Source: a virus. From it: 64,000 nt of DNA. The position numbers and the translations under genes are program-made. Shown here in pieces: positions 9,350-31,602 of this stretch (positions are counted from its first letter, which is position 1; every line of letters begins with the position of its first letter). Under the pieces are notes generated by a model. That model saw only the letters and a list, made by a program, of their open reading frames with translations, ran no database searches and was not told the DNA's origin. Where the stretch lies: IMG/VR virus record IMGVR_UViG_3300029827_000121, positions 9,744 to 73,743 of that record; one strand, given 5' to 3'.

Positions 9350-10098
9350 TGATCAAATTTAGCCATTTTAATGCTTATCGATGTCAATAGTTGTGTTATT
9401 CTACCAATTACTAGCTAGTTGAATCGTTCTCTATTTGGTTGATAGGGGGAAGGGTAACTTCCTCGAAATCAGCCATTTGCGCGTTTTGAAACGTAGTATA
9501 CGCTTCCTCTCGTGCTTTAGCTGGTGCAATGGTTATATTTTGCTCAATGTCCACTTTGTCGCCGAAATCTTGCCGATTATACCTTGACATAAACCATTGA
9601 CGGTGACCCCAAACACGGTCGAAACGGCGTATGCGGTTACTTGTACGTTTGTAATTATCGTCATTTTCGACCTGATTATTGAGTATTTGAACTTCACCTT
9701 CAAATTCATCCGCGACTGCGTGCGTACGATGTCGTACGGCAGTTCGCCACGTGTTCAACAGTTGAACAGACACCGATCTCCACAGATACACCGTCGTTTT
9801 GGCTAGTCCGTGGCGTTTAACGATATTGTCGATGGTGTCGGTAGTAGTGGCTATTTCGAGGATAATGCTTTGCATTTTTCGGGCGTCATAGTGCTGTAAA
9901 CCGAAGGGCGTTTTCACTGAAGCAGGGACCAGCAATTCTTTTTCCTCAGATGATAGGTGGGATACGTTCGGTTTTTCCTCCCCTTTTATCACCTGCAAAG
10001 CATTTTTATCACTTGTCATGATGCTCCTTTTTTATCTATTTAATAAATTAAATTATGAGCATGCATAATTTAACTCGTTAAATGGCTAAATTTGATCA
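9350..10098. repeat. 19-bp perfect inverted repeat pair flanking terS (9350-9368 / 10080-10098)
   Basis: TGATCAAATTTAGCCATTT and its reverse complement AAATGGCTAAATTTGATCA. Confidence 0.9.
9411..10019 (-). CDS. terS: Terminase small subunit
   Basis: HTH (GLAKTTVYLW) followed by helical region and RQWFMSRYNRQDFGDKVDIEQ motif typical of TerS; upstream of terL. Confidence 0.85.
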   Translation of the reverse strand: MTSDKNALQVIKGEEKPNVSHLSSEEKELLVPASVKTPFGLQHYDARKMQSIILEIATTTDTIDNIVKRHGLAKTTVYLWRSVSVQLLNTWRTAVRHRTHAVADEFEGEVQILNNQVENDDNYKRTSNRIRRFDRVWGHRQWFMSRYNRQDFGDKVDIEQNITIAPAKAREEAYTTFQNAQMADFEEVTLPPINQIENDSTS

Positions 10099-10250
10099 AT
10101 TTGACCATAATTAACTAAAAGTTAAATTATACACGTGTATAATTTAACACGTTAAATTATGAGCATGCATAATTTAACACGTGTTAAATAGCGAAATTCG
10201 TTCAAAAACGCTATTTAACGAATATTAAATTATGAGCGTGTATAATTTAA
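10048..10250. repeat. Four 26-bp palindromic repeats TTAAATTAT-N8-ATAATTTAA
   Basis: Copies at 10048, 10122 (perfect 28-bp palindrome 10121-10148), 10152 and 10225. Confidence 0.9.
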
Positions 10251-10537
10251 ACGATTAATAGGGTATAGGGTTTTTGCACGCGCCCTACGGCGCGTGTTTT
10301 GTTCTCACTTTAAAATGCAATAAAATGCGAAAACAATGAAACCACTATGGTGAAACTAGCTAGCTAGGGTGAAATTGGTCGATATTATTGCCGTGGGGCG
10401 ATTGTGGATAGGCTGTACAGCCTATAGTATTATATCCCCTTCCGTAGGTTTCCCCTATTGGTTAATCCTGATTACTAGAGATTGTCACTAATAGGGTAAT
10501 GGTGTATGGTAAAATTAACCAATAACCGGGAGGTATA

Positions 10538-14905: not shown

Positions 14906-15319
14906 ATGAAAAGATTTTTATTGCCGTGCATTATACTGTTTTTTGTTCCGACAATTAATGGGCAAAATATATATGTTAATGGTCAAGCAAAAGATAATAT
15001 TGGAAATAGATTAATTTATAAAGTCAAAGAGAACATCAGACAATCAAAAGGAATGATTTTATATCCTTCGGAAACCGGTTCAGGTATTCAAATCAACATA
15101 ATTACTTTAGATGCATTAGAAGATAATTTATCCACAGTATATTCTATTGTATGGACATGGACCACTTCAAACAATTTTAAATCATTTATTACTCATCATG
15201 TTGGTATGTGCGGAAAATATAAAATAAATGATGTTGCCGAACAAATTGTTGCCGATACGGATGAAATTATTATGGAATTAAAAAAGATAATACTTGATAT
15301 TTATAACGAAAATCAATAA
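14906..15319 (+). CDS. Secreted protein (signal peptide)
   Basis: MKRFLLPCIILFFVPTING N-terminus; AAGGAG SD. Confidence 0.65.
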   Translation: MKRFLLPCIILFFVPTINGQNIYVNGQAKDNIGNRLIYKVKENIRQSKGMILYPSETGSGIQINIITLDALEDNLSTVYSIVWTWTTSNNFKSFITHHVGMCGKYKINDVAEQIVADTDEIIMELKKIILDIYNENQ

Positions 15320-15390: not shown

Positions 15391-15648
15391 ATTGCCATGG
15401 CGTAGTTGGGCCTTGTTACGCATTGCAAAGCAAAGGTAATGCCAAGTATAGCAATGTATTGTGTTGTAAAGGTATAGTGTAGCTGGGCCATGTTGCGCTG
15501 TGCAAAGGCAAAGCGTAGTTAGGCAATGTAGTGTATGGCAAAGGTAATGCGAAGTTGGGCCATGTAGCGTAATGCAAAGGCATAGCTCTGCGTGGTATAG
15601 TTAAGCCATGCAAAGGCATTGCATAGTTGTGTGAGGTAATGCAAAGGC
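15391..15648 (+). repeat. Array A1: (NNNGY)n + AAAGGY units, about 7 units; putative guide ncRNA
   Basis: Parse: aaaggt aatgc caagt atagc aatgt attgt gttgt aaaggt atagt gtagc tgggc catgt tgcgc tgtgc aaaggc... Confidence 0.9.
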
Positions 15649-15663
15649 ATGCCTTGAGCAAAG

Positions 15664-15740
15664 TAAATTTTCCCTGTCCCGATTCACTGCCTTCATTGTA
15701 TCAGGCGGATGAAGGTAAGGAAAAAGGCAGGGAAAATTTA
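15664..15740. other. Stem-loop insert interrupting array A
   Basis: 13-bp perfect IR TAAATTTTCCCTG/CAGGGAAAATTTA with inner CCTTCAT/ATGAAGG stem. Confidence 0.8.
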
Positions 15741-15754
15741 TAATTATTTTCGCT

Positions 15755-16577
15755 AATGCAAAGTAATGCAGCGCTTGTCACCGCAAAGGCACGGTTTAGT
15801 TTGGCCCCGTGTTTCTAAGCGAAGCAAAGGCGAAGCATTGTGAAGATAGGTGATGATAAGCAAAAGATAAGTAATGTTTTGTAAAGTTTAGTAATGCACA
15901 GGCATAGTTCTGTATTGTATCGTATAGCACAGCAAAGGCATGGTGATGTACAGTGAAGTTCAGCAATGTACAGTAAAGACTAAGTCAGGTGTAGTACAGC
16001 AAAGCAATTGTAACGCACAGCAAAGGCATAGTTCAGTATAGTAAAGTTAAGCGAACCATCGGCAAAGTATAGCGGAGTATAGCTTGGCAAAGACTATGTT
16101 TGGTGCAGAGGGGTGCAGCTAAGTACAGCAATGGCGATGCATAGAAAGGTGGTGGGAAACACTGCACAGGCTAGGCAAAGTGGAGCATAGCTTGGCAAAA
16201 GCAAAGCGGGGCGTCGTTTTGTGTTGTATGGCAAAGCAAAAGCAATGTGAAGCAGGGTCTTGTTTAGCACAGGTAATGCAGTGTATAGTATTGTGTGGCA
16301 ATAGCACAGCGGAGCTGTGTTACGCACCGTTTGGCATAGGCATAGTTTAGTGAAGTAATGCATAGCATAGGCAGAGTCTGGAACAGTACCGTTTGGCACA
16401 GGCATAGTTAAGCCCCGTCATATACAGTTGCGCATTGTAAAGGCTGGGCGTAGTGATGCATAGTGAAGCACAGGCAAAGCTTGGCAATGTAATGTATAGC
16501 TCAGGCAAGGCGTGGCAAAGCATAGTACAGTCGCGCACAGGCAATGCGAGGCGCAGTATGGTGTTGTATTGAAAAGC
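15755..16577 (+). repeat. Array A2: (NNNGY)n + AHAGGY units, about 23 units; putative guide ncRNA
   Basis: Same 5-nt periodic grammar, more degenerate hexamers (aaagac, aaaagc, aatggc). Confidence 0.9.
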
Positions 16578-16643: not shown

Positions 16644-17057
16644 ATGAGATACGCAATTGCCGTTTTGAGACACGCAAAACAACCAGACATCAAATGTCTG
16701 GAAATGCCGCAATTTTACCGCTCTATAAAAGAGATAGCTGTTCCTCATGCTTTATTGTTTGAAGATTTATCTAAAGCTCTTCAGATAAAAAATGAATTGG
16801 ATATCAGCCCTTATATTGCCGAAGGGGATGAATGGGCAAAACCCGACTTCTATGTAGTCAATCATGTCGTCGCCGATTACATCCGTACGGCACGTTTTGG
16901 TAATGAAGATGTATATGAATGGAAAAAATGTTTCTGTGAAAAGAACAACGGCGCACCTTGTCGGGAATGTTTTATATGCATGCGTTTTCGAATCCTTTCA
17001 GATCGAAGATTCATTATTACTCATCGTGAAGTTGAAAAGGAAGGAGTAAAGGCATGA
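16644..17057 (+). CDS. Hypothetical protein with Cys cluster (start MRYAIAV)
   Basis: AAGGAG SD before ATG 16644; the longer ORF-track start lies inside the array. Confidence 0.6.
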   Translation: MRYAIAVLRHAKQPDIKCLEMPQFYRSIKEIAVPHALLFEDLSKALQIKNELDISPYIAEGDEWAKPDFYVVNHVVADYIRTARFGNEDVYEWKKCFCEKNNGAPCRECFICMRFRILSDRRFIITHREVEKEGVKA

Positions 17058-17446
17058 AAATGTCGGTTATTCTCATACTATTATGTCTATTTTCCTGCAA
17101 CAGCCTTCGAGGACCAACGGGTCCGGCAGGTCCGGCAGGTCCGCGAGGACCACAAGGAGAACAGGGAGAACCGGGAGAAATACGTCCGATTGTAAAAAGC
17201 GGTATCCTTTATTCTTCTGAAAAAGTGGAAGGAAAAGATTATTGGGAAATCATATTACTCGGACATGAAGATTTTTTTGTCATGTTACCTGATACCATAC
17301 TTATTAATTGTTATGTCCGTAAAGGAAGTGGGTATATGTGGCATTCCCCGATTTGGTATTATGGTAACTGGTATATAAGAATCTTTGATGATGAGGAATG
17401 CGATCCCGGTGATGAGTACATAATTACCGCTATTGTTCCCGATTAA
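17054..17446 (+). CDS. Lipoprotein with collagen-like Gly-X-Y repeat
   Basis: Lipobox LFSC then GPTGPAGPAGPRGPQGEQGEPGE. Confidence 0.8.
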   Translation: MKMSVILILLCLFSCNSLRGPTGPAGPAGPRGPQGEQGEPGEIRPIVKSGILYSSEKVEGKDYWEIILLGHEDFFVMLPDTILINCYVRKGSGYMWHSPIWYYGNWYIRIFDDEECDPGDEYIITAIVPD

Positions 17447-25600: not shown

Positions 25601-26045
25601 CGGTGTTTGGTAAGGTAATGCAAAGGCACCGTGGGGTGATGTATTGTCAAGCACAGGTACAGCACGGTTTTGTTTAGCATAGGCAACGCATTGTTATGAC
25701 ATGTTTTGTTAAGCACAGGCATAGTGAAGCAATGTAAAGTTTTGCACAGGCATGGTGATGTAAGGTTTGGTAAGGTGATGCACAGGCAATGCGCGGTGGA
25801 GTTTCGTTATGCACAGGCACGGTTTGGCAAAGCACGGCTTCGTTTTGCATAGGCGGTGTGGCGTTTAGTAAGGTGAAGCTTGGTCATGCACAGGCAGTGC
25901 GCGGTGAAGTTTCGTTATGCACAGGCAAGGCAGGGTAATGTTTGGCCCAGCACAGGCTAAGCTTGGTGTTGTTTGGTAAGGCACAGGAAGAGCAAAGTGA
26001 GGTTTAGTATAGCACAGGCGAAGTAAAGCATAGTCAAGCAAAGGC
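25601..26045 (+). repeat. Array B: 13 complete (NNNGY)4-7 units separated by A(C/T/A)AGGY; putative guide ncRNA
   Basis: 67 of 68 pentamers end in GY; all 13 units end in GC before the hexamer (GCAHAGG core). Confidence 0.95.
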
Positions 26046-26056
26046 AAGGAGCGCGT

Positions 26057-26260
26057 ATGACGAAAGATTCGCTGATGACTCCCGATGAATTGAGTGAGCG
26101 ATTAAACGTCAGTAAGAAGTTCATCGAAAAATACATGGCGTTACGGCGTCTGCCCGGTATGGTAAAAATCGGGGGAATTTATCGGTTCAGGCGTGCCGAT
26201 ATTGAAAAACGACTGACCGGCGGAGAGTTTTTATTGCCGGAGAGAGGAAGAAAAAAATGA
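26057..26260 (+). CDS. xis: Excisionase / HTH_17 recombination directionality factor
   Basis: LMTPDELSERLNVS...LPGMVKIGGIYRFRRADIE; near int. Confidence 0.85.
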   Translation: MTKDSLMTPDELSERLNVSKKFIEKYMALRRLPGMVKIGGIYRFRRADIEKRLTGGEFLLPERGRKK

Positions 26261-26532: not shown

Positions 26533-26623
26533 CAGTATGCGTAAAAGCGTAGAAAATATACCCTCTCCTCCCCTACCTGATACTATATTATACTCAGATA
26601 CCCTCCCTGAAAAGGGAGGAGAT

Positions 26624-27676
26624 ATGCGAGTCTGGTATAAGGATGATGCAAACGGGGTCCGGTGGTATTACGTTGACCGGGCATACCGAAACGGCGCGGG
26701 AAAGGCGCGTCACTTCCGCCGCAAGACGGATAATTTCGATCAGCATTTAAAAAATCAGATCGAAGCCCGTTCATTGACGGGAGATTGTTCTTTGACATCG
26801 TTGCGATTTTCCAAATGCGTGGAACTTTATTTGAACGAGCGCGGACGCGGGGGATTTAATCAGGCGTGTTACGACCGGTCGATTAAGGAGCTGGGTCGCC
26901 TGTTTCCCGACAAACAGATTTTCGCCGCCGGTTACAGCCGGTATGTCGGGAATCTTGAAGGGAGCGACCTTGCGGTCAATACGGTCAATAATTATAAAAT
27001 TATTGTCCGGTCGATCTGCAATTTCGCTTATGAGACCGGTCGGTGCGGTCGGGCCACGGTCAGAGATTGGAGGATCAGGAAAGGCAACGAGCGCAATCGG
27101 ATTCTCTCCGACGGCGAAAAAAACGCCCTGATCAATTATTTGACCTTACATAAATCCCATATACTCGAAGCGGTAAAATTCTCCCTTATTAATCCCATCC
27201 GCAAGGGGGATCTTTTCAGTTTGCAACGAAAAGATCTTCAGATGGATGTCTCGCGATGGGTCGTTCGTTTTCAGGCGAAGAAAACGAGAAATAAAATTCG
27301 GGTGACGATCCTGCCGAATATCGACATGGATTTTGTCCGGTACGCCCATTCGTTGCCGGGGGATTGTCCGTGGCTTTTTCCCATGTTGGAACGGAAAAAC
27401 GGAAAGGTTGTCTGGAAAAAAATCAGCGATCCCCGATGGCATTTCGATACGGTTTTAAAACAGGTGGGGATTTATGATTTCAACTGGCACGATTTGAAGC
27501 ATTGCGCGGAGACGTATTTATTGCGGCAGGGATTCACCTATGAGATGTTGCAGAAAATGGGTATTCAAACGAGTCCGAAGACGCAGCATATTTACGATAA
27601 CCGTCGTCAGATTGATATCATAAATGACGTATTATGTAGCCCTCAGGTAGCCTTTCCGGTACGGAAGACGGCATAG
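26624..27676 (+). CDS. int: Tyrosine integrase
   Basis: IRKGDL (R), K, WHDLKH (HxxR variant), Y in TQHIYD; adjacent attP; GGAGG SD before ATG 26624. Confidence 0.9.
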   Translation: MRVWYKDDANGVRWYYVDRAYRNGAGKARHFRRKTDNFDQHLKNQIEARSLTGDCSLTSLRFSKCVELYLNERGRGGFNQACYDRSIKELGRLFPDKQIFAAGYSRYVGNLEGSDLAVNTVNNYKIIVRSICNFAYETGRCGRATVRDWRIRKGNERNRILSDGEKNALINYLTLHKSHILEAVKFSLINPIRKGDLFSLQRKDLQMDVSRWVVRFQAKKTRNKIRVTILPNIDMDFVRYAHSLPGDCPWLFPMLERKNGKVVWKKISDPRWHFDTVLKQVGIYDFNWHDLKHCAETYLLRQGFTYEMLQKMGIQTSPKTQHIYDNRRQIDIINDVLCSPQVAFPVRKTA

Positions 27677-27879
27677 AACCATTGGTTTTATTGGGTGAAA
27701 CCTACTCCGTCGTAGAGTTGCTAAACCTGCGTAGGGGCAACTCTACCGGAGGTTCAAATCCTCTCCCCTCCGTTTTTTTAACGAATTTGGGCACTTTTTT
27801 TAAAAACCTGCTTTCCATCATGAGTATTTTTATCCTCAAATATACTATCATCAGGGCCAATTGTAGTCTTTTTGTAGCC
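27635..27879 (+). mobile_element. attP: core = 3' half of tRNA-Ser(GCT) (27718-27772) with arm-type repeats
   Basis: TT-GCT-AA loop, long variable arm, GGAGG-TTCAAAT-CCTCT T-arm, CCCCTCCG; no 5' half; paired (T/G)GTAG(C/T)C repeats 11 bp apart at 27635/27646 and 27862/27873. Confidence 0.9.
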
Positions 27880-27932: not shown

Positions 27933-29313
27933 AGAGGCGATGCATGGTATGGTTCAGTATTGTTATGCACAGGCAGAGCATGGTTAAGCCAAGCACAGGC
28001 AAAGCGAGGTAGAGCGAAGTCAGGTGATGCACAGGCACAGCAGAGTAAAGTTAGGTCATGCACAGGCAGAGTGATGTCTAGTAAAGCATAGGCGTAGCGA
28101 TGTGCTGTTATGTACAGGCACAACAGAGTAGAGTTTGGTATTGTTTAGCACAGGCATGGTCTAGTTTTGTTTGGCACGGTAAAGCAAAGGCAAAGTGCTG
28201 TAAGGTGAAGCACAGGCATGGTCTGGTTTAGCTTGATATTGCGCGGCACAGGCAATGTAAAGTGAAGTAAGGTGATGCACAGGCGATGCATGGTATAGCA
28301 ATGTATGGCACCGGCATGGTGCAGTGATGTTCAGTAAAGCATGGGCACGGTGCTGTGAAGTGTTGTATAGCAATGGCAAGGTGAAGTAGTGCATTGTGTG
28401 GCAAAGCCATTGCTTGGTGAAGTGCTGTAATGTCGAGCATAGGCAATGCATAGTGAAGCATTGCTCTGCAAAGGCAAAGCGTGGTTTAGTGATGCAAAGG
28501 CATAGTTTTGTGACGTGCTGTTTCGTAAAGCATAGACTATGCGTTGTGACGCTGTGTATTGCAAATGAAAGGCGAAGTGGTGCATGTCGCTGTATGGCAA
28601 AGGCGAAGTAAGGTGAAGCACTGTGATGCATTGTGGAGCACAGGCATAGTGAAGCATTGTGCAGCATAGGTAAGGCAAAGCGGTGTGTTGTTTCGTCATG
28701 CACAGGCATGGTATCGCGGCGTTTAGTGCGGCAAAGGAACGGCAAAGCTTGGCATGGCGATGGTAAAGCGTTGAGTAGTTTGGCACAGCACCGGCAAAGT
28801 AAGGCGAAGTAGTGTTTAGCATAGCATAGGCAAAGCATAGTGAAGATAAGGAACGCGTCGTGAAGTCAAGCACCGGCAATACATGGTAAAGCACCGTTTG
28901 GCCTTGTTAAGGCGAAGTATTGTGTGGTATGGTGTTGTGGAGCATTGCACAGGTATAGCATGGTGCTGTTATACTTTGTGTAGCGCGGGAAAGGCATGGT
29001 AAAGTAAGGTTGTGCCTCGTGTACCACAGGAATGGCAAAGTGAAGTTATGTAATGTGGGACAAAGGCTGAGTAACGTTAAGTAAAGTGATGCATAGGCAT
29101 GGCAACTCGCGGTAACGTATTGCCCGACGAAGCAAAGGTAAAGCATAGCAATGTGACGCGCAGCGGGGCGAGGGTAATGCATAGTAATGTAATGTGCAGC
29201 GGGGCAGGGGTAATGTGAAGTATAGTTTAGTCGCGCAAAAGCTTTGTATGGATTTGCGTAGTTAAGTGTTGCAAAAGCAGGTCGATGTAACGTATCGTAT
29301 GGAACAGCACTGT
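27933..29313 (+). repeat. Array C1: about 41 (NNNGY)n + AHAGGY units; putative guide ncRNA
   Basis: Continuous pentamer/hexamer parse; ends in a T-run. Confidence 0.95.
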
Positions 29314-29370
29314 TTTTTTTAACCATTTTGGAAAAAACCAATTGGATCAAATAGAAAGGAGATGTTCGCG

Positions 29371-29478
29371 ATTGTAAAGTGCTGTATTGCAATGTGGGGT
29401 TTTGCAACGGCTGAGTTGAGCAAGGAATAGTTTGGCGATGCAAAGGTATAGTGTAGTATTGCTAATCAATGCAAAGGT
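29371..29478 (+). repeat. Array C2: about 3 units directly upstream of the RAMP gene
   Basis: attgt aaagt gctgt attgc aatgt ggggt tttgc aacggc ... aatgc aaaggt. Confidence 0.8.
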
Positions 29479-29512: not shown

Positions 29513-30145
29513 ATGAAGACGCTCAAAGTAAAAATCACTTTCCAAGAAGAAGTGTTGGGAACAGCAAGTCCGTCAAAAGAAATCCACGCGGAATATATAG
29601 CCAGCAAAGCTCCCGACAAACTAACGCGGGAAGAAGAAGTGGAAGCTATCGGGATAGAAGAAGTCGTTGAAAAAGCAATGACTATCTTCCCACGCGATAA
29701 GGATAGTAATCCCATCTTTTGGGATTACCAGTGGAAGGGATTTTTCAAAGATACCTGCGCCGCTCTCATGCGCTGTGAAGGATTCGAAACGTATAAGGCA
29801 TCAAAATCCGAATCGGGTAAAGGAAAGAAAGGAGAATTAAGAGCATATAAAAAGGTGATCGATGGATGTATTTTCGTTCACCCGAGAATGATTGCCATCA
29901 AAGTAAAAGGCAAAATGGGAAACTGTCAACGTCCTCTTCGCGGAAATACCGCGCAGGGAGAGAGGATTGCTTTGGCGAACAGTGAAACCGTCCCCGCAGG
30001 AAGCACCTGCGAATTGGAGATTCAATGTTTGAGTGATTCCCATGAAAAGTTTGTGCGTGAATGGCTTGATTACGGCCAATTGCGCGGCATCGGACAATGG
30101 CGTAACTCCGGCAAAGGCCGCTTTACCGTCAATTACTTGAAATAA
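29513..30145 (+). CDS. Stand-alone Cas7/Csm3-like RAMP-fold protein (210 aa)
   Basis: beta1 LKVKITFQEEVLG; PIFWDYQWKGFFKD (equivalent to IPGSSxKGxxR); ETVPAGSTCELEI; C-terminal Gly-rich loop GIGQWRNSGKGRF; GAAAGG SD. Confidence 0.85.
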   Translation: MKTLKVKITFQEEVLGTASPSKEIHAEYIASKAPDKLTREEEVEAIGIEEVVEKAMTIFPRDKDSNPIFWDYQWKGFFKDTCAALMRCEGFETYKASKSESGKGKKGELRAYKKVIDGCIFVHPRMIAIKVKGKMGNCQRPLRGNTAQGERIALANSETVPAGSTCELEIQCLSDSHEKFVREWLDYGQLRGIGQWRNSGKGRFTVNYLK

Positions 30146-31218
30146 GCCATGCTTTGGCAATCCAAAGTATAGGAATGCCCGGTGCGGTCAAGCATCGTTA
30201 ATGCTATGTATTGCAGGGTGGTGTATGGCACAGGCATGGTATCGTTAGGCATAGTAAAGTTAAGCATAGGCAAGGTAAAGCTATGCATTGCCTAGTAATG
30301 GTTTGGTAAAGCAGGGCCGGATACGGTGGAGCAAAGCACAGGCTTGGCGAGGCGTTGTATCGTGTGGCACAGGCATAGAATAGTTAGGAGTGGCCGAGCA
30401 AAAGCCAAGTGATGTATTGTCCGGCAAAGGTAAAGCATAGTGCTATTTCGTTGCGTAGAGCAGAAGCGAGGCGAAGTATAGTAATTCGTAGTATAGCAAA
30501 GGAAGTGTACCGTTAAGTTGCGCGAAGCAAAGGCTGAGTGAAGCGTAGTTTTGCGCCGCAAAGGCAAAGCGAAGTTCCGTTCAGTACGGCAAAGGCATGG
30601 TTATGTTACATACTGTGAAGCCCTGCAAAGGCATAGTTTTGCGTGGTTTAGCGACGCAAAAGAAGTGTGAAGCCTTGTTTCGTATCGCCATGCGAAGGTA
30701 TTGTACTGCGCAGTGCAGTCATGTATTGCAATGGTTGGGCGAAGCCCTGTCCAGTATGGCAAAGCAAAAGCAGTGTATGGTGAAGCTGAGCTAGCAAAGG
30801 ATCAGCATAGTTAAGTATCGCGATGCATTGAAAAGGCTATTCAATGTATAGTGTTGCAAAGGTAACGTGGAGTCAGGTGTTGTTTCGCGATGCAAAGGAA
30901 GAGCATAGTTGTGTTCCGTTCTGCAAAGGCAAAGCGAAGCGAAGTAGCGGCGTGTGAAGCATAGGCGAAACATGGTGGTGTTGAGTATAGTAATGCAAAG
31001 GCAAAGCGAAGCAAAGTAAGGTGTTGTGAAGCATAGGCAGGACATAGTGTGGTGCAGCATGGTAATGCAAAGGCGGAGTGAAGTAATGTAACGTACAGTT
31101 TCGCAGAGGCGTAGTAAAGTACCGTTGTGTTTGACAAAGCAAAGGTTCAGCAAAGCGTAGTATTTTATTGTTCAGCAAAAGCAAAGCTAAGTATCGTTCG
31201 GTCGTGCGAAGCAAAGGC
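30146..31218 (+). repeat. Array D: about 31 (NNNGY)n + AHAGGY units; putative guide ncRNA
   Basis: Starts at the RAMP stop codon and ends 3 bp from the convergent RusA-like stop; AAAGGY dominant. Confidence 0.95.
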
Positions 31219-31221
31219 GCA

Positions 31222-31602
31222 TTATACCTCTTCAATCACTATCACCGTCTGTTCTACCGGCGATATTTCCGGTTTGTGGACCTGATAGCTTTCGATCTGG
31301 TCGGGCGAATCAGTTTCAAGTATTCCGCAATTAACGATTCCGTCGAGTGCAGCTTTTCCCGATATGTTATCAATGTCGGTCTTTTGCTTTCGGGTAGAAT
31401 AAATATCGATATGAACAGGTGAATCAAATGTCTCACCCGAATACGCTGAAACGGGTTCATTTCGAGAAGCCGGTTCCATGTTGGTAACGGAATGGGGAGT
31501 ATTATCTCCATTCTTTTTTTTTCGGTATGCATCAACGATCTGTTGCTTTATATGTTCCGGAATAGGATATTTATTCAATTCCGAGAGATTTCGAATTTTC
31601 AT
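31222..31602 (-). CDS. rusA: RusA-like Holliday junction resolvase
   Basis: TDIDN..GKAALDG...GILETDS catalytic motif. Confidence 0.75.
   Translation of the reverse strand: MKIRNLSELNKYPIPEHIKQQIVDAYRKKKNGDNTPHSVTNMEPASRNEPVSAYSGETFDSPVHIDIYSTRKQKTDIDNISGKAALDGIVNCGILETDSPDQIESYQVHKPEISPVEQTVIVIEEV

What the first reader, a model, noticed from the sequence alone, without database searches (positions are those of the whole stretch)
25601..26045. Array grammar quantified: GY fixed, three variable positions, GCAHAGG punctuation
Seen (manual count in array B): 13 units, 68 pentamers, 67 ending in GY. Position 3 is A 22, G 20, T 20, C 6, so the motif is NNNGY (or NN-DGY), not GGY/NN. All 13 units end in GC, giving a conserved GC-A(C/T/A)A-GG core where the phase slips by +1. 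Inference: the hexamer is a processing site, filament cap or boundary. A single unit holds only 8-14 (NN) or 12-21 (NNN) informative bases, so either three bases per step are read or guides span several units.
Basis: partly seen in the sequence, partly recalled or inferred. Interest (0 to 1): 0.85.

Follow-up and report, generated by a model that had tools for sequence, protein, structure and literature searches.

The report
Punctuated VIPR guide-RNA array, phage
This 445-base gene-free stretch of a temperate marsh phage is one of four arrays of short guide RNAs for a VIPR system (a CRISPR-like RNA-guided DNA silencer first described in 2026); its layout of five-base steps closed by a six-base stop is a variant already in print, but the letters hint that three bases per step are read, not two.

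Summary
Array B (25602-26045) parses into 14 units of 26/31/36/41 nt (5n+1). It has 72 pentamers, 71 ending in GY, and position 3 is A22/G22/T22/C6. Every unit closes with GC|AHAGGY.

The same grammar fills four plus-strand arrays: about 117 clean units, 4.1 kb, 5.6% of a 73.7-kb phage. They surround a 210-aa Cas7/Csm3-fold gene (29513-30145).

This is a VIPR locus (Vipr protein plus vrRNAs; bioRxiv 10.64898/2026.04.26.720920). That paper already lists YNNNG repeats and "staggered" arrays, and this scan has logged similar punctuated arrays in other genomes. It is therefore a new member of a known kind.

What I add:
- The GCAHHGGY stop and 5n+1 spacing are conserved across the Vipr clade.
- Related strains differ by whole-unit cassettes that break at the hexamer.
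- One unit's 18 variable bases, read contiguously, match vipr genes of rival phages 18/18 (shuffle P about 0.004). The match covers exactly that unit.
- Position 3 avoids completing stop codons (z -3.2, three data sets).

Together these suggest a contiguous three-of-five code, but this is not proven. No RNA data exist, so processing at the hexamer is untested.

The parts
25602..26045 (+). Array B, the finding: 14 vrRNA-like units of 4-7 NNNGY pentamers, each closed by a hexamer AHAGGY. It begins right after the stop codon of the upstream ORF and ends at the ribosome-binding site of the xis-like gene.
15394..16567 (+). Array A: about 35 units of the same grammar on the same strand, 13 kb from the vipr gene ('orphan' position).
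27934..29421 (+). Array C: about 41 units, directly upstream of vipr.
29513..30145 (+). vipr candidate: a 210-aa stand-alone RAMP with a Cas7/Csm3-like fold and the C-terminal G-loop motif GIGQWRNSGKGRF.
30177..31218 (+). Array D: about 30 units, directly downstream of vipr.
30931..30966 (+). Unit in array D (AAAGC GAAGC GAAGT AGCGG CGTGT GAAGC ATAGGC). Its 18 variable bases, joined without gaps, equal a site in the vipr genes of related gut phages.
26057..26260 (+). HTH_17 (excisionase-like) gene between arrays B and C.
26537..27676 (+). Tyrosine integrase gene.
27718..27761 (+). attP core, equal to the 3' part of a tRNA-Ser(GCT). A marine-sediment contig joins the 5' part of the tRNA here, showing the prophage form.
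31489..31514 (+). Terminator-like hairpin (10-bp stem followed by T8) downstream of array D. It is a possible end of the C-vipr-D transcript.

Best explanation
Array B is one of four arrays of vrRNA (guide RNA) genes of a VIPR system carried by a temperate phage. Shown here: a lone Cas7-like RAMP gene (29513-30145) sits between two arrays. All four arrays lie on its strand and share one grammar, pentamers N1N2N3-G-Y. Every 4-7 pentamers a six-base element A-H-A-G-G-Y, preceded by GC and usually followed by A, shifts the phase by +1. Inferred by analogy with the solved SUSP1 VIPR: one Vipr protomer binds each pentamer, holding the fixed G and Y and exposing the variable bases to a DNA target, and binding represses rival mobile elements. 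Each 26-41-nt unit is an independent guide module, and the hexamer marks its boundary. The boundary role is supported; cleavage there is not tested. In this Vipr clade the first G of the canonical GGY is no longer fixed. My working model, at about 40-50%, is that this base (N3) pairs with the target base that canonical VIPR skips. A unit would then read 3 contiguous target bases per pentamer, giving 12-21 bp per unit with the same 3-nt target step as canonical VIPR.
For: The protein has a RAMP fold. The AF2 model has pLDDT 73. Foldseek's best hit is 8z4j_J (type VII Cas7) at E 7.5e-8, with 176 hits at E<=1e-3, nearly all Cas7/Csm3/Cmr4. VIA-align gives Z 12.2 to Csm3 9g9a_D. A profile of the family aligns end to end with the SUSP1 Vipr (E 8.5e-4) and shares G.G.WR..G.GRF. 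The arrays are real, strand-specific and periodic. The published description fits: vipr flanked by long intergenic 5-nt repeat tracts, a viral or proviral host, alternative YNNNG repeats, staggered arrays. Unit modularity: window and strain L001 share units 1-7 of array B, then differ by whole units, always breaking at hexamers. 47 of 83 units have orthologues while the flanks are 92-97% identical. The stop motif is conserved across the clade: spacings of GCAHHGGY on the vipr strand peak at 26/31/36/41 in IMG/VR gut phages and in 80 species-representative genomes (121 of 203 spacings equal 1 mod 5; no pattern on the other strand). Three-base reading, target match: the unit at 30931 matches 18/18 in vipr genes of four local loci. 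The chance of at least one such hit among all 47 six-pentamer units is 0.0037, and 2e-4 for this unit's composition. No shuffle of 1000 came within 1 mismatch of any vipr gene. 10 of 14 exact IMG/VR occurrences are at that one vipr site. vipr-targeting vrRNAs are a published class. Three-base reading, statistics: with N1N2 fixed and only N3 shuffled, stop codons number 55 against 72.7+-5.5 (z -3.2; the three independent sets give -1.6, -2.1, -1.8). Codons spanning N3 and the next N1N2 are also depleted in stops (z -2.3, -1.35, -1.4), whereas the physically adjacent phase Y-N1-N2 is not (101 vs 101). N1, N2 and N3 diverge equally between strains (19/25/19). The two SUSP1 residues that read the first G (H17, D177) are T17 and Q195 here, while W178/R179 are kept as W196/R197.
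Against: There are no expression data: no RNA run was listed, so transcription, processing and Vipr binding are all inferred. Only one unit of about 325 examined has a significant target; 15-mers show no enrichment (7 vs 6.3) and no other unit hits vipr. The matched alleles come from human-gut phages, not from the marsh habitat of this phage. In that match N1 lies on the wobble base, so the published wobble-aligned skip logic does not describe it simply. The antisense cross-boundary depletion (z -3.35) did not replicate in the third data set (z -0.14). The dinucleotide test was inconclusive. The alignment to SUSP1 Vipr is weak (probability 24%), so the residue mapping for H17 is tentative. No vap accessory gene and no 3' tail or pseudoknot were found, unlike the characterised type II system.
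Confidence: 0.8

Rival explanations
1. Canonical two-of-five code. The arrays are VIPR guides, but only N1N2 pair with the target (one target base skipped per pentamer). N3 is a relaxed protein-contact position that is not read. Each unit then specifies only 8-14 bases, like a transcription-factor site.
For: This is the only rule shown experimentally, for SUSP1 and P. fulva. A six-unit, 18-bp footprint with 12 read bases is functional in SUSP1 vrRNA4. N1/N2 composition resembles codon positions 1-2: N1 is purine-rich and N2 is A/T-rich and G-poor. The published papers treat YNNNG and WGT/NN as degenerate trinucleotide plus NN.
Against: No enrichment of perfect N1N2x matches over shuffles appeared in any database, though power was low. 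N3 is statistically coupled to N1N2 and to the next N1N2 in the way coding DNA would be. The 18/18 match includes all six N3 bases and all six N1 (wobble) bases.
Confidence: 0.4
2. Long guides. The array is not cut at the hexamers. A Vipr filament runs through several units and reads a long target, with the extra base acting only as a register or helical-phase adjuster.
For: Single units carry little information under the two-base rule. There is no hairpin, ribozyme or tail between units.
Against: The one significant match ends exactly at both hexamers: 0/3 and 1/3 matches for the flanking AHA triplets. Strains exchange whole single units. Unit order is not conserved beyond shared blocks.
Confidence: 0.07
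3. Decoy or sponge. Some arrays, especially the orphan arrays A and B, do not guide this phage's own Vipr. They would instead titrate or redirect rival Vipr proteins, as satellite-borne solo vrRNAs do.
For: Solo vrRNAs that redirect a rival's VIPR are published. Arrays A and B lie 13 kb and 3.5 kb from vipr. One unit targets vipr itself.
Against: All four arrays share the same grammar, stop motif and strand as the two arrays that flank the phage's own vipr. The vipr-matching unit lies in array D next to vipr, and the phage's own vipr differs at that site.
Confidence: 0.1
4. Not a guide at all: a periodic RNA or DNA bound by some other oligomeric protein (TRAP-like 5-nt register, CsrA-type sponge) or a DNA-curvature element.
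For: The 5-nt period is half a helical turn. TRAP binds triplets spaced by 2-3 nt (from general knowledge).
Against: The arrays co-occur with a Cas7-fold gene across hundreds of loci, on its strand, directly abutting it. The signal is strictly strand-specific. The variable positions turn over rapidly. No Rfam family matched.
Confidence: 0.02

Closest known systems
VIPR systems with alternative YNNNG/NNNNG repeats and 'staggered' vrRNA arrays (bioRxiv 10.64898/2026.04.26.720920, Methods 'VIPR type classification' and fig. S18 legend)
   Same: A lone Vipr RAMP flanked by intergenic 5-nt repeat tracts in a phage. The repeat is Y-N-N-N-G, the same cyclic word as NNNGY. [quoted passage not shown]
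   Different: The figure and supplementary tables are not held, so I cannot confirm that 'staggered' means the 5n+1 hexamer punctuation seen here. The preprint says staggered arrays were not among the architectures confirmed by small-RNA sequencing. It gives no targeting rule for YNNNG repeats. This locus is very large (about 117 clean units in four arrays, two of them away from vipr) and has no recognisable vap gene.
Type II VIPR of Escherichia phage SUSP1 (Vipr ALH47069.1 plus four vrRNAs; structures in bioRxiv 10.64898/2026.04.26.720927)
   Same: A protein of about 200 aa with an RRM core and the G-loop G.G.WR..G.GRF. Pentamer repeats on the vipr strand either side of the gene. A 3-nt target step per protomer is the expected geometry. 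The last SUSP1 repeat before the tail is also a hexamer (ATGGGT; read).
   Different: SUSP1 has NNGGY with a fixed first G, 9-16 repeats per vrRNA, a roughly 40-nt 3' tail with a pseudoknot cap, separate promoters and a vap1 gene. Here the first G is free (G in 31% of pentamers), units have 4-7 repeats, there is no tail, and the G1-reading residues H17/D177 are T/Q.
Non-canonical VIPR arrays found by entropy periodicity (bioRxiv 10.64898/2026.10.21.760802; WGT/NN, TGH/NN, GAC/NN)
   Same: Five-nt period with one degenerate position inside the 'fixed' trinucleotide, next to Vipr-like folds.
   Different: Those clusters are described as about 10 repeats per array. No hexamer punctuation or 5n+1 units are mentioned in the text that I could read.
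Class 1 CRISPR crRNA-Cas7 backbone (types I, III, IV, VII)
   Same: The Cas7/Csm3 fold. One protomer per fixed step of guide RNA, with periodic interruption of guide-target pairing. Unit length (26-41 nt) resembles a spacer. Arrays vary between strains by whole units.
   Different: The step is 5 nt, not 6. There are no repeat-spacer structure, no cas1/cas2/cas6 and no large or small subunits. The conserved 'repeat' between units is only about 9 nt.

Membership tests
VIPR system (Vipr + vrRNA) | Stand-alone RAMP protein (RRM core, glycine-rich loop, thumb) outside any CRISPR-cas locus | tested here: met
   Foldseek E 7.5e-8 to type VII Cas7 and VIA Z 12.2 to Csm3 over residues 1-210. G-loop GIGQWRNSGKGRF is present. 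No Pfam or PHROG family matched. No CRISPR array or other cas gene was seen in the window.
VIPR system (Vipr + vrRNA) | Sequence homology to a characterised Vipr protein | tested here: inconclusive
   hhalign of the family profile against SUSP1 Vipr gives E 8.5e-4 and probability 24% over 170 columns end to end, with a shared G-loop motif. The reference X1U2U4 is not available here.
VIPR system (Vipr + vrRNA) | Tandem 5-nt repeats in the intergenic DNA flanking vipr, on its strand | tested here: met
   Arrays C and D abut the gene. All 29 chains are on the + strand.
VIPR system (Vipr + vrRNA) | Canonical GGY/NN repeat (YNNGG) | tested here: not met
   The first G of GGY is G in only 22 of 72 pentamers of array B. 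The word is YNNNG, which the discovery paper lists as an alternative consensus.
VIPR system (Vipr + vrRNA) | Conserved structured 3' tail (pseudoknot cap) after each repeat tract | tested here: not met
   Units abut directly. The only conserved inter-unit element is GC|AHAGGY|A. This fits the 'staggered' architecture of fig. S18, not type II.
VIPR system (Vipr + vrRNA) | vrRNAs are expressed and co-purify with Vipr | not testable with these tools
   No RNA holder was listed among public runs.
VIPR system (Vipr + vrRNA) | Viral or proviral location | tested here: met
   The record is a 73.7-kb virus. It carries an integrase and an excisionase-like gene. A prophage junction at tRNA-Ser appears in a sediment contig.
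VIPR system (Vipr + vrRNA) | Adjacent accessory gene (vap) | tested here: inconclusive
   No ORF lies between the arrays and vipr. The nearest genes are xis-like, a Cys-rich 91-aa ORF, the integrase and an unannotated minus-strand ORF. vap families are not in the libraries.
VIPR system (Vipr + vrRNA) | Guides match rival mobile elements by the 1-nt-skip rule (NNx) | tested here: inconclusive
   No excess of NNx matches over shuffles, but the databases held here hardly sample the phage's habitat. One contiguous 18/18 match to rival vipr genes was found.
CRISPR-Cas class 1 | Repeat-spacer array with repeats of about 24-40 nt and adaptation or processing genes (cas1, cas2, cas6) | tested here: not met
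   The tandem-repeat and ORF scans show none. One sub-threshold Cas2 hit (17 bits against a cut-off of 24.7) falls on a secreted protein.

The most novel reading that the evidence does not exclude
In this widespread Vipr clade (thousands of members, mostly gut phages) the code is not the published 'two read, one skipped'. Each pentamer N1N2N3GY would read three contiguous target bases, because the pocket for the first G has been lost and that base now pairs with the formerly skipped target base. Guides would be minimal 26-41-nt modules closed by a conserved six-base stop, GC|AHAGGY|A, that takes the place of the 3' pseudoknot cap. That would be a second, denser VIPR recognition code with its own punctuation.
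Probability: 0.4. Interest if true: 0.7.

Novelty: new member of a known kind. Interest (0 to 1): 0.42.

Why it matters
VIPR is a months-old class of programmable DNA binders, and only the GGY/NN type II form has been dissected. This phage devotes 5.6% of its genome to about 117 clean guide units of the least-studied architecture: YNNNG repeats with no tail and hexamer punctuation. If the three-base contiguous reading is right, it changes two things. Targets of thousands of gut-phage VIPR loci would have to be predicted differently, since NNx searches would miss or mis-score them. It would also offer a shorter, denser guide format for engineering. If it is wrong, the locus is still a clean, large test case for how tail-less vrRNAs are delimited.

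Tried and rejected
- Rfam at gathering threshold and the tRNA scan found nothing in the window.
- No RNA holder was listed among public runs, so RNA ends relative to the hexamer could not be mapped.
- The promoter scan was not above shuffles.
- Self-targeting: none under nine rules.
- NNx, xNN, NxN, NNNx and NNNxx rules showed no excess over shuffles against about 2-7 Mb of related phage and prophage DNA. The NNNxx hits were unmasked array copies.
- Exact 21-mer scans of IMG/VR for five seven-pentamer units: four gave nothing. One (unit 28914) hit a structural gene on a 5.5-kb contig, antisense. My rough estimate is 0.3-0.8 chance hits over five scans, and no other unit converged on that contig, so I do not count it.
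- The paralogous unit at 31003 gave 72 IMG/VR hits, none near a vipr gene. It is A-rich low complexity.
- The dinucleotide-adjacency test across GY was inconclusive.
- Triplet-versus-codon residual correlation (rho 0.61 in frame, 0.37-0.49 in other frames) is only weakly specific.
- The Cas2-like hit on ORF 14906-15319 was rejected: it is sub-threshold and the protein has a signal peptide.
The host remains unknown.
- TRAP-like, CsrA-sponge and DNA-curvature readings were considered and rejected (see rival explanations).

Full report
**The observation**

The region 25601-26045 lies between the stop codon of an upstream ORF and the ribosome-binding site of an HTH_17 (excisionase-like) gene. A dynamic-programming parse into tokens ending in GY gives 14 units of 26, 31, 36 or 41 nt. 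There are 72 pentamers, 71 of them ending in GY. Position 3 is A22/G22/T22/C6. Fourteen hexamers of the form AHAGGY are each preceded by a pentamer ending in GC.

Chains of GY at steps of 5 or 6 with at least 8 links occur 29 times on the plus strand. They never occur on the minus strand or in shuffles. They define four arrays: A 15394-16567, B 25602-26045, C 27934-29421 and D 30177-31218. Together these hold about 117 clean units whose lengths are nearly all 5n+1. Over all units the boundary logo is G C | A H A G G Y | A. The arrays total about 4.1 kb of a 73.7-kb virus record.

**What it is**

Between arrays C and D lies a 210-aa ORF (29513-30145) with no Pfam or PHROG match. Its AlphaFold model (pLDDT 73) matches Cas7/Csm3/Cmr4 backbone subunits: Foldseek E 7.5e-8, and VIA-align Z 12.2 with rmsd 3.4 over 151 residues to Csm3.

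A literature search found the system. VIPR is a phage-borne lone RAMP (Vipr) plus vrRNAs made of 5-nt repeats, and it binds DNA by a gapped code (bioRxiv 10.64898/2026.04.26.720920). The family profile aligns end to end with the SUSP1 Vipr, which I located in KT454805 between its two GGY/NN tracts. The alignment scores E 8.5e-4 and shares the G-loop G.G.WR..G.GRF.

The discovery paper's Methods state that loci lacking YNNGG repeats have 'NNNGG, YNNNG, and NNNNG repeats'. Its fig. [quoted passage not shown] A later preprint reports 21 clusters with motifs such as WGT/NN. So 'GY fixed, three variable positions' is a described variant, and the abutting-unit layout very probably is too, although I could not see the figure. 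This scan has also logged similar hexamer-punctuated arrays in other genomes.

**Setting**

The phage is temperate. It carries an integrase and an xis-like gene. Positions 27718-27761 are the 3' part of tRNA-Ser(GCT), and a marine-sediment contig joins the tRNA's 5' part exactly there. DNA runs holding related strains come from wetland, marsh and marine-sediment metagenomes.

The Vipr family is very large:
- at least 7,900 proteins at E<=1e-3;
- 554 confirmed IMG/VR stretches;
- 572 metagenome stretches, with both lists capped;
- 148 stretches in species-representative genomes, mostly gut Clostridia, with a Chitinivibrionales MAG as the nearest environmental hit.

**The hexamer as a boundary**

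Three independent observations support this.

1. Conservation. In gut relatives with about 60% identical Vipr, the arrays are short (about 350 nt, downstream of the gene) and the pentamer is NNNG[C/A]. The stop motif GCAHHGGY recurs at spacings of 26/31/36, and at 57/62/67 for two units. In 80 genomes of different species, 121 of 203 spacings equal 1 mod 5, and the opposite strand shows no pattern.
2. Cassette turnover. Strain L001 has flanks 92-97% identical to the window. It shares units 1-7 of array B with point changes. After that, three window units are absent from L001, one unit is shared, and several L001 units are absent from the window. Every breakpoint lies at a hexamer. Overall, 47 of 83 units in arrays B-D have an orthologue. 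Contigs of other strains replace array B with about 99 or 296 nt.
3. The single significant target match, described below, begins and ends exactly with one unit's pentamers.

In addition, the last repeat of each SUSP1 vrRNA before its tail is also a hexamer (ATGGGT; my reading). A six-base closing repeat may therefore be ancestral, with this clade having lost the tail. Whether RNA is cut at the hexamer, and by what, is untested.

**Two or three bases per step**

In SUSP1 the guide's G1 is read by H17 and D177, G2 by R138 and W178, and Y3 by a pocket that includes R179. N4N5 pair with the target, and one target base is extruded. In the natural register, N3 of this array corresponds to G1. The aligned residues here are T17 and Q195 (invariant or nearly so), while W196 and R197 are kept. 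This fits loss of G1 recognition.

I joined the variable bases of each unit under nine rules and searched the phage itself, then about 2-7 Mb of related phage and prophage DNA, with shuffled guides as controls. There was no self-targeting and no excess for any two-of-three rule.

Under the contiguous rule, one unit stood out. The unit at 30931 is AAAGC GAAGC GAAGT AGCGG CGTGT GAAGC ATAGGC. Joined, its variable bases give AAAGAAGAAAGCCGTGAA, which matches 18/18 in the vipr genes of four gut-phage loci.
- The chance of at least one such hit among the 47 six-pentamer units is 0.0037, and 2e-4 for this unit's own composition.
- Against vipr genes alone, no shuffle of 1000 came within one mismatch.
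- In all of IMG/VR the 18-mer occurs 14 times, and 10 of those are at this one vipr site.
- The flanking hexamer triplets do not match.
- In other vipr alleles every mismatch falls on N1, which is the codon wobble base at this site.
- The unit is conserved in strain L001.
- vrRNAs aimed at rivals' vipr genes are a published class.

Independent of any target, the variable triplets behave like contiguous coding DNA.
- With N1N2 held fixed and only N3 shuffled, stop codons number 55 against 72.7+-5.5 (z -3.2). The three independent unit sets give z -1.6, -2.1 and -1.8.
- Non-stop TAY and TGB triplets are not depleted.
- Codons formed by N3 plus the next pentamer's N1N2 are depleted in stops against a position-preserving permutation (z -2.3, -1.35, -1.4).
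- The antisense window N2N3|N1' gives z -3.35 and -1.7 but only -0.1 in the third set.
- The physically adjacent phase Y|N1N2 shows no depletion (101 vs 101.0), and a two-pentamers-ahead control is weak (z -1.0).
- Between strains, N1, N2 and N3 change equally often (19/25/19).

A contiguous reading keeps the 3-nt target step per protomer of the solved structure, so it is geometrically modest.

**Limits**

- One target among about 325 units is thin evidence, and its alleles are from gut phages, not marsh phages.
- 15-mers show no excess.
- Five exact 21-mer scans of IMG/VR gave one hit that I judge compatible with chance.
- A paralogous unit's 18-mer hit 72 unrelated contigs.
- A dinucleotide test was inconclusive.
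- No RNA data exist.

I therefore hold the three-base code at about 40% and the canonical two-base code at about the same.

**Verdict**

The thing is a VIPR vrRNA array of the YNNNG, tail-less, hexamer-punctuated kind. That makes it a new and unusually large member of a kind published in 2026 and already met elsewhere in this scan.

Noticed in passing
window 30170-30200 (contig of run X3, table 7): A marine-sediment contig that matches the phage up to 30200 continues as TGTTCCCCGCACACGCGGGGATGAACCG, which looks like a type I-E CRISPR repeat. Some bacterium seems to carry a spacer against the 3' end of vipr or the start of array D, which is a lead to the host.
   Followed up: no
window 27718-27761: Prophage junction. 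A sediment contig joins the 5' part of a tRNA-Ser(GCT) to the phage at 27718 and leaves it at 27761. Integration would therefore place array C about 170 nt downstream of the rebuilt tRNA.
   Followed up: partly
window 10047-10258: Two copies of a 104-nt AT-rich repeat built from palindromic ATTAAATTATnnnCATGCATAATTTAAC elements, at the switch of GC skew. It is a possible origin or operator region.
   Followed up: no
L002-L161 and L248-L327 (gut relatives): In the gut-phage relatives the fifth pentamer position is C or A, and rarely T. It is C/T in the marsh phage. Only the G is universal in this clade, so the 'pyrimidine pocket' of SUSP1 Vipr may not be conserved.
   Followed up: partly
window 14906-15319: A secreted 137-aa protein just upstream of array A gives a sub-threshold Pfam hit to Cas2 (E 0.005, 17 bits against a cut-off of 24.7). 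It has a signal peptide, so the hit is probably spurious.
   Followed up: partly
L328:2165-2185 (-): The 21 variable bases of unit 28914 (GAAATTGTGATGGTTGGAATT) occur once in IMG/VR, antisense in a 464-aa structural-looking gene of a 34% GC contig. This is compatible with chance but worth rechecking with a mismatch-tolerant search.
   Followed up: partly
window 17054-17446: A 130-aa ORF with a short collagen-like G-x-y repeat (Pfam Collagen, below cut-off), also seen as 9-nt tandem repeats at 17120-17179.
   Followed up: no
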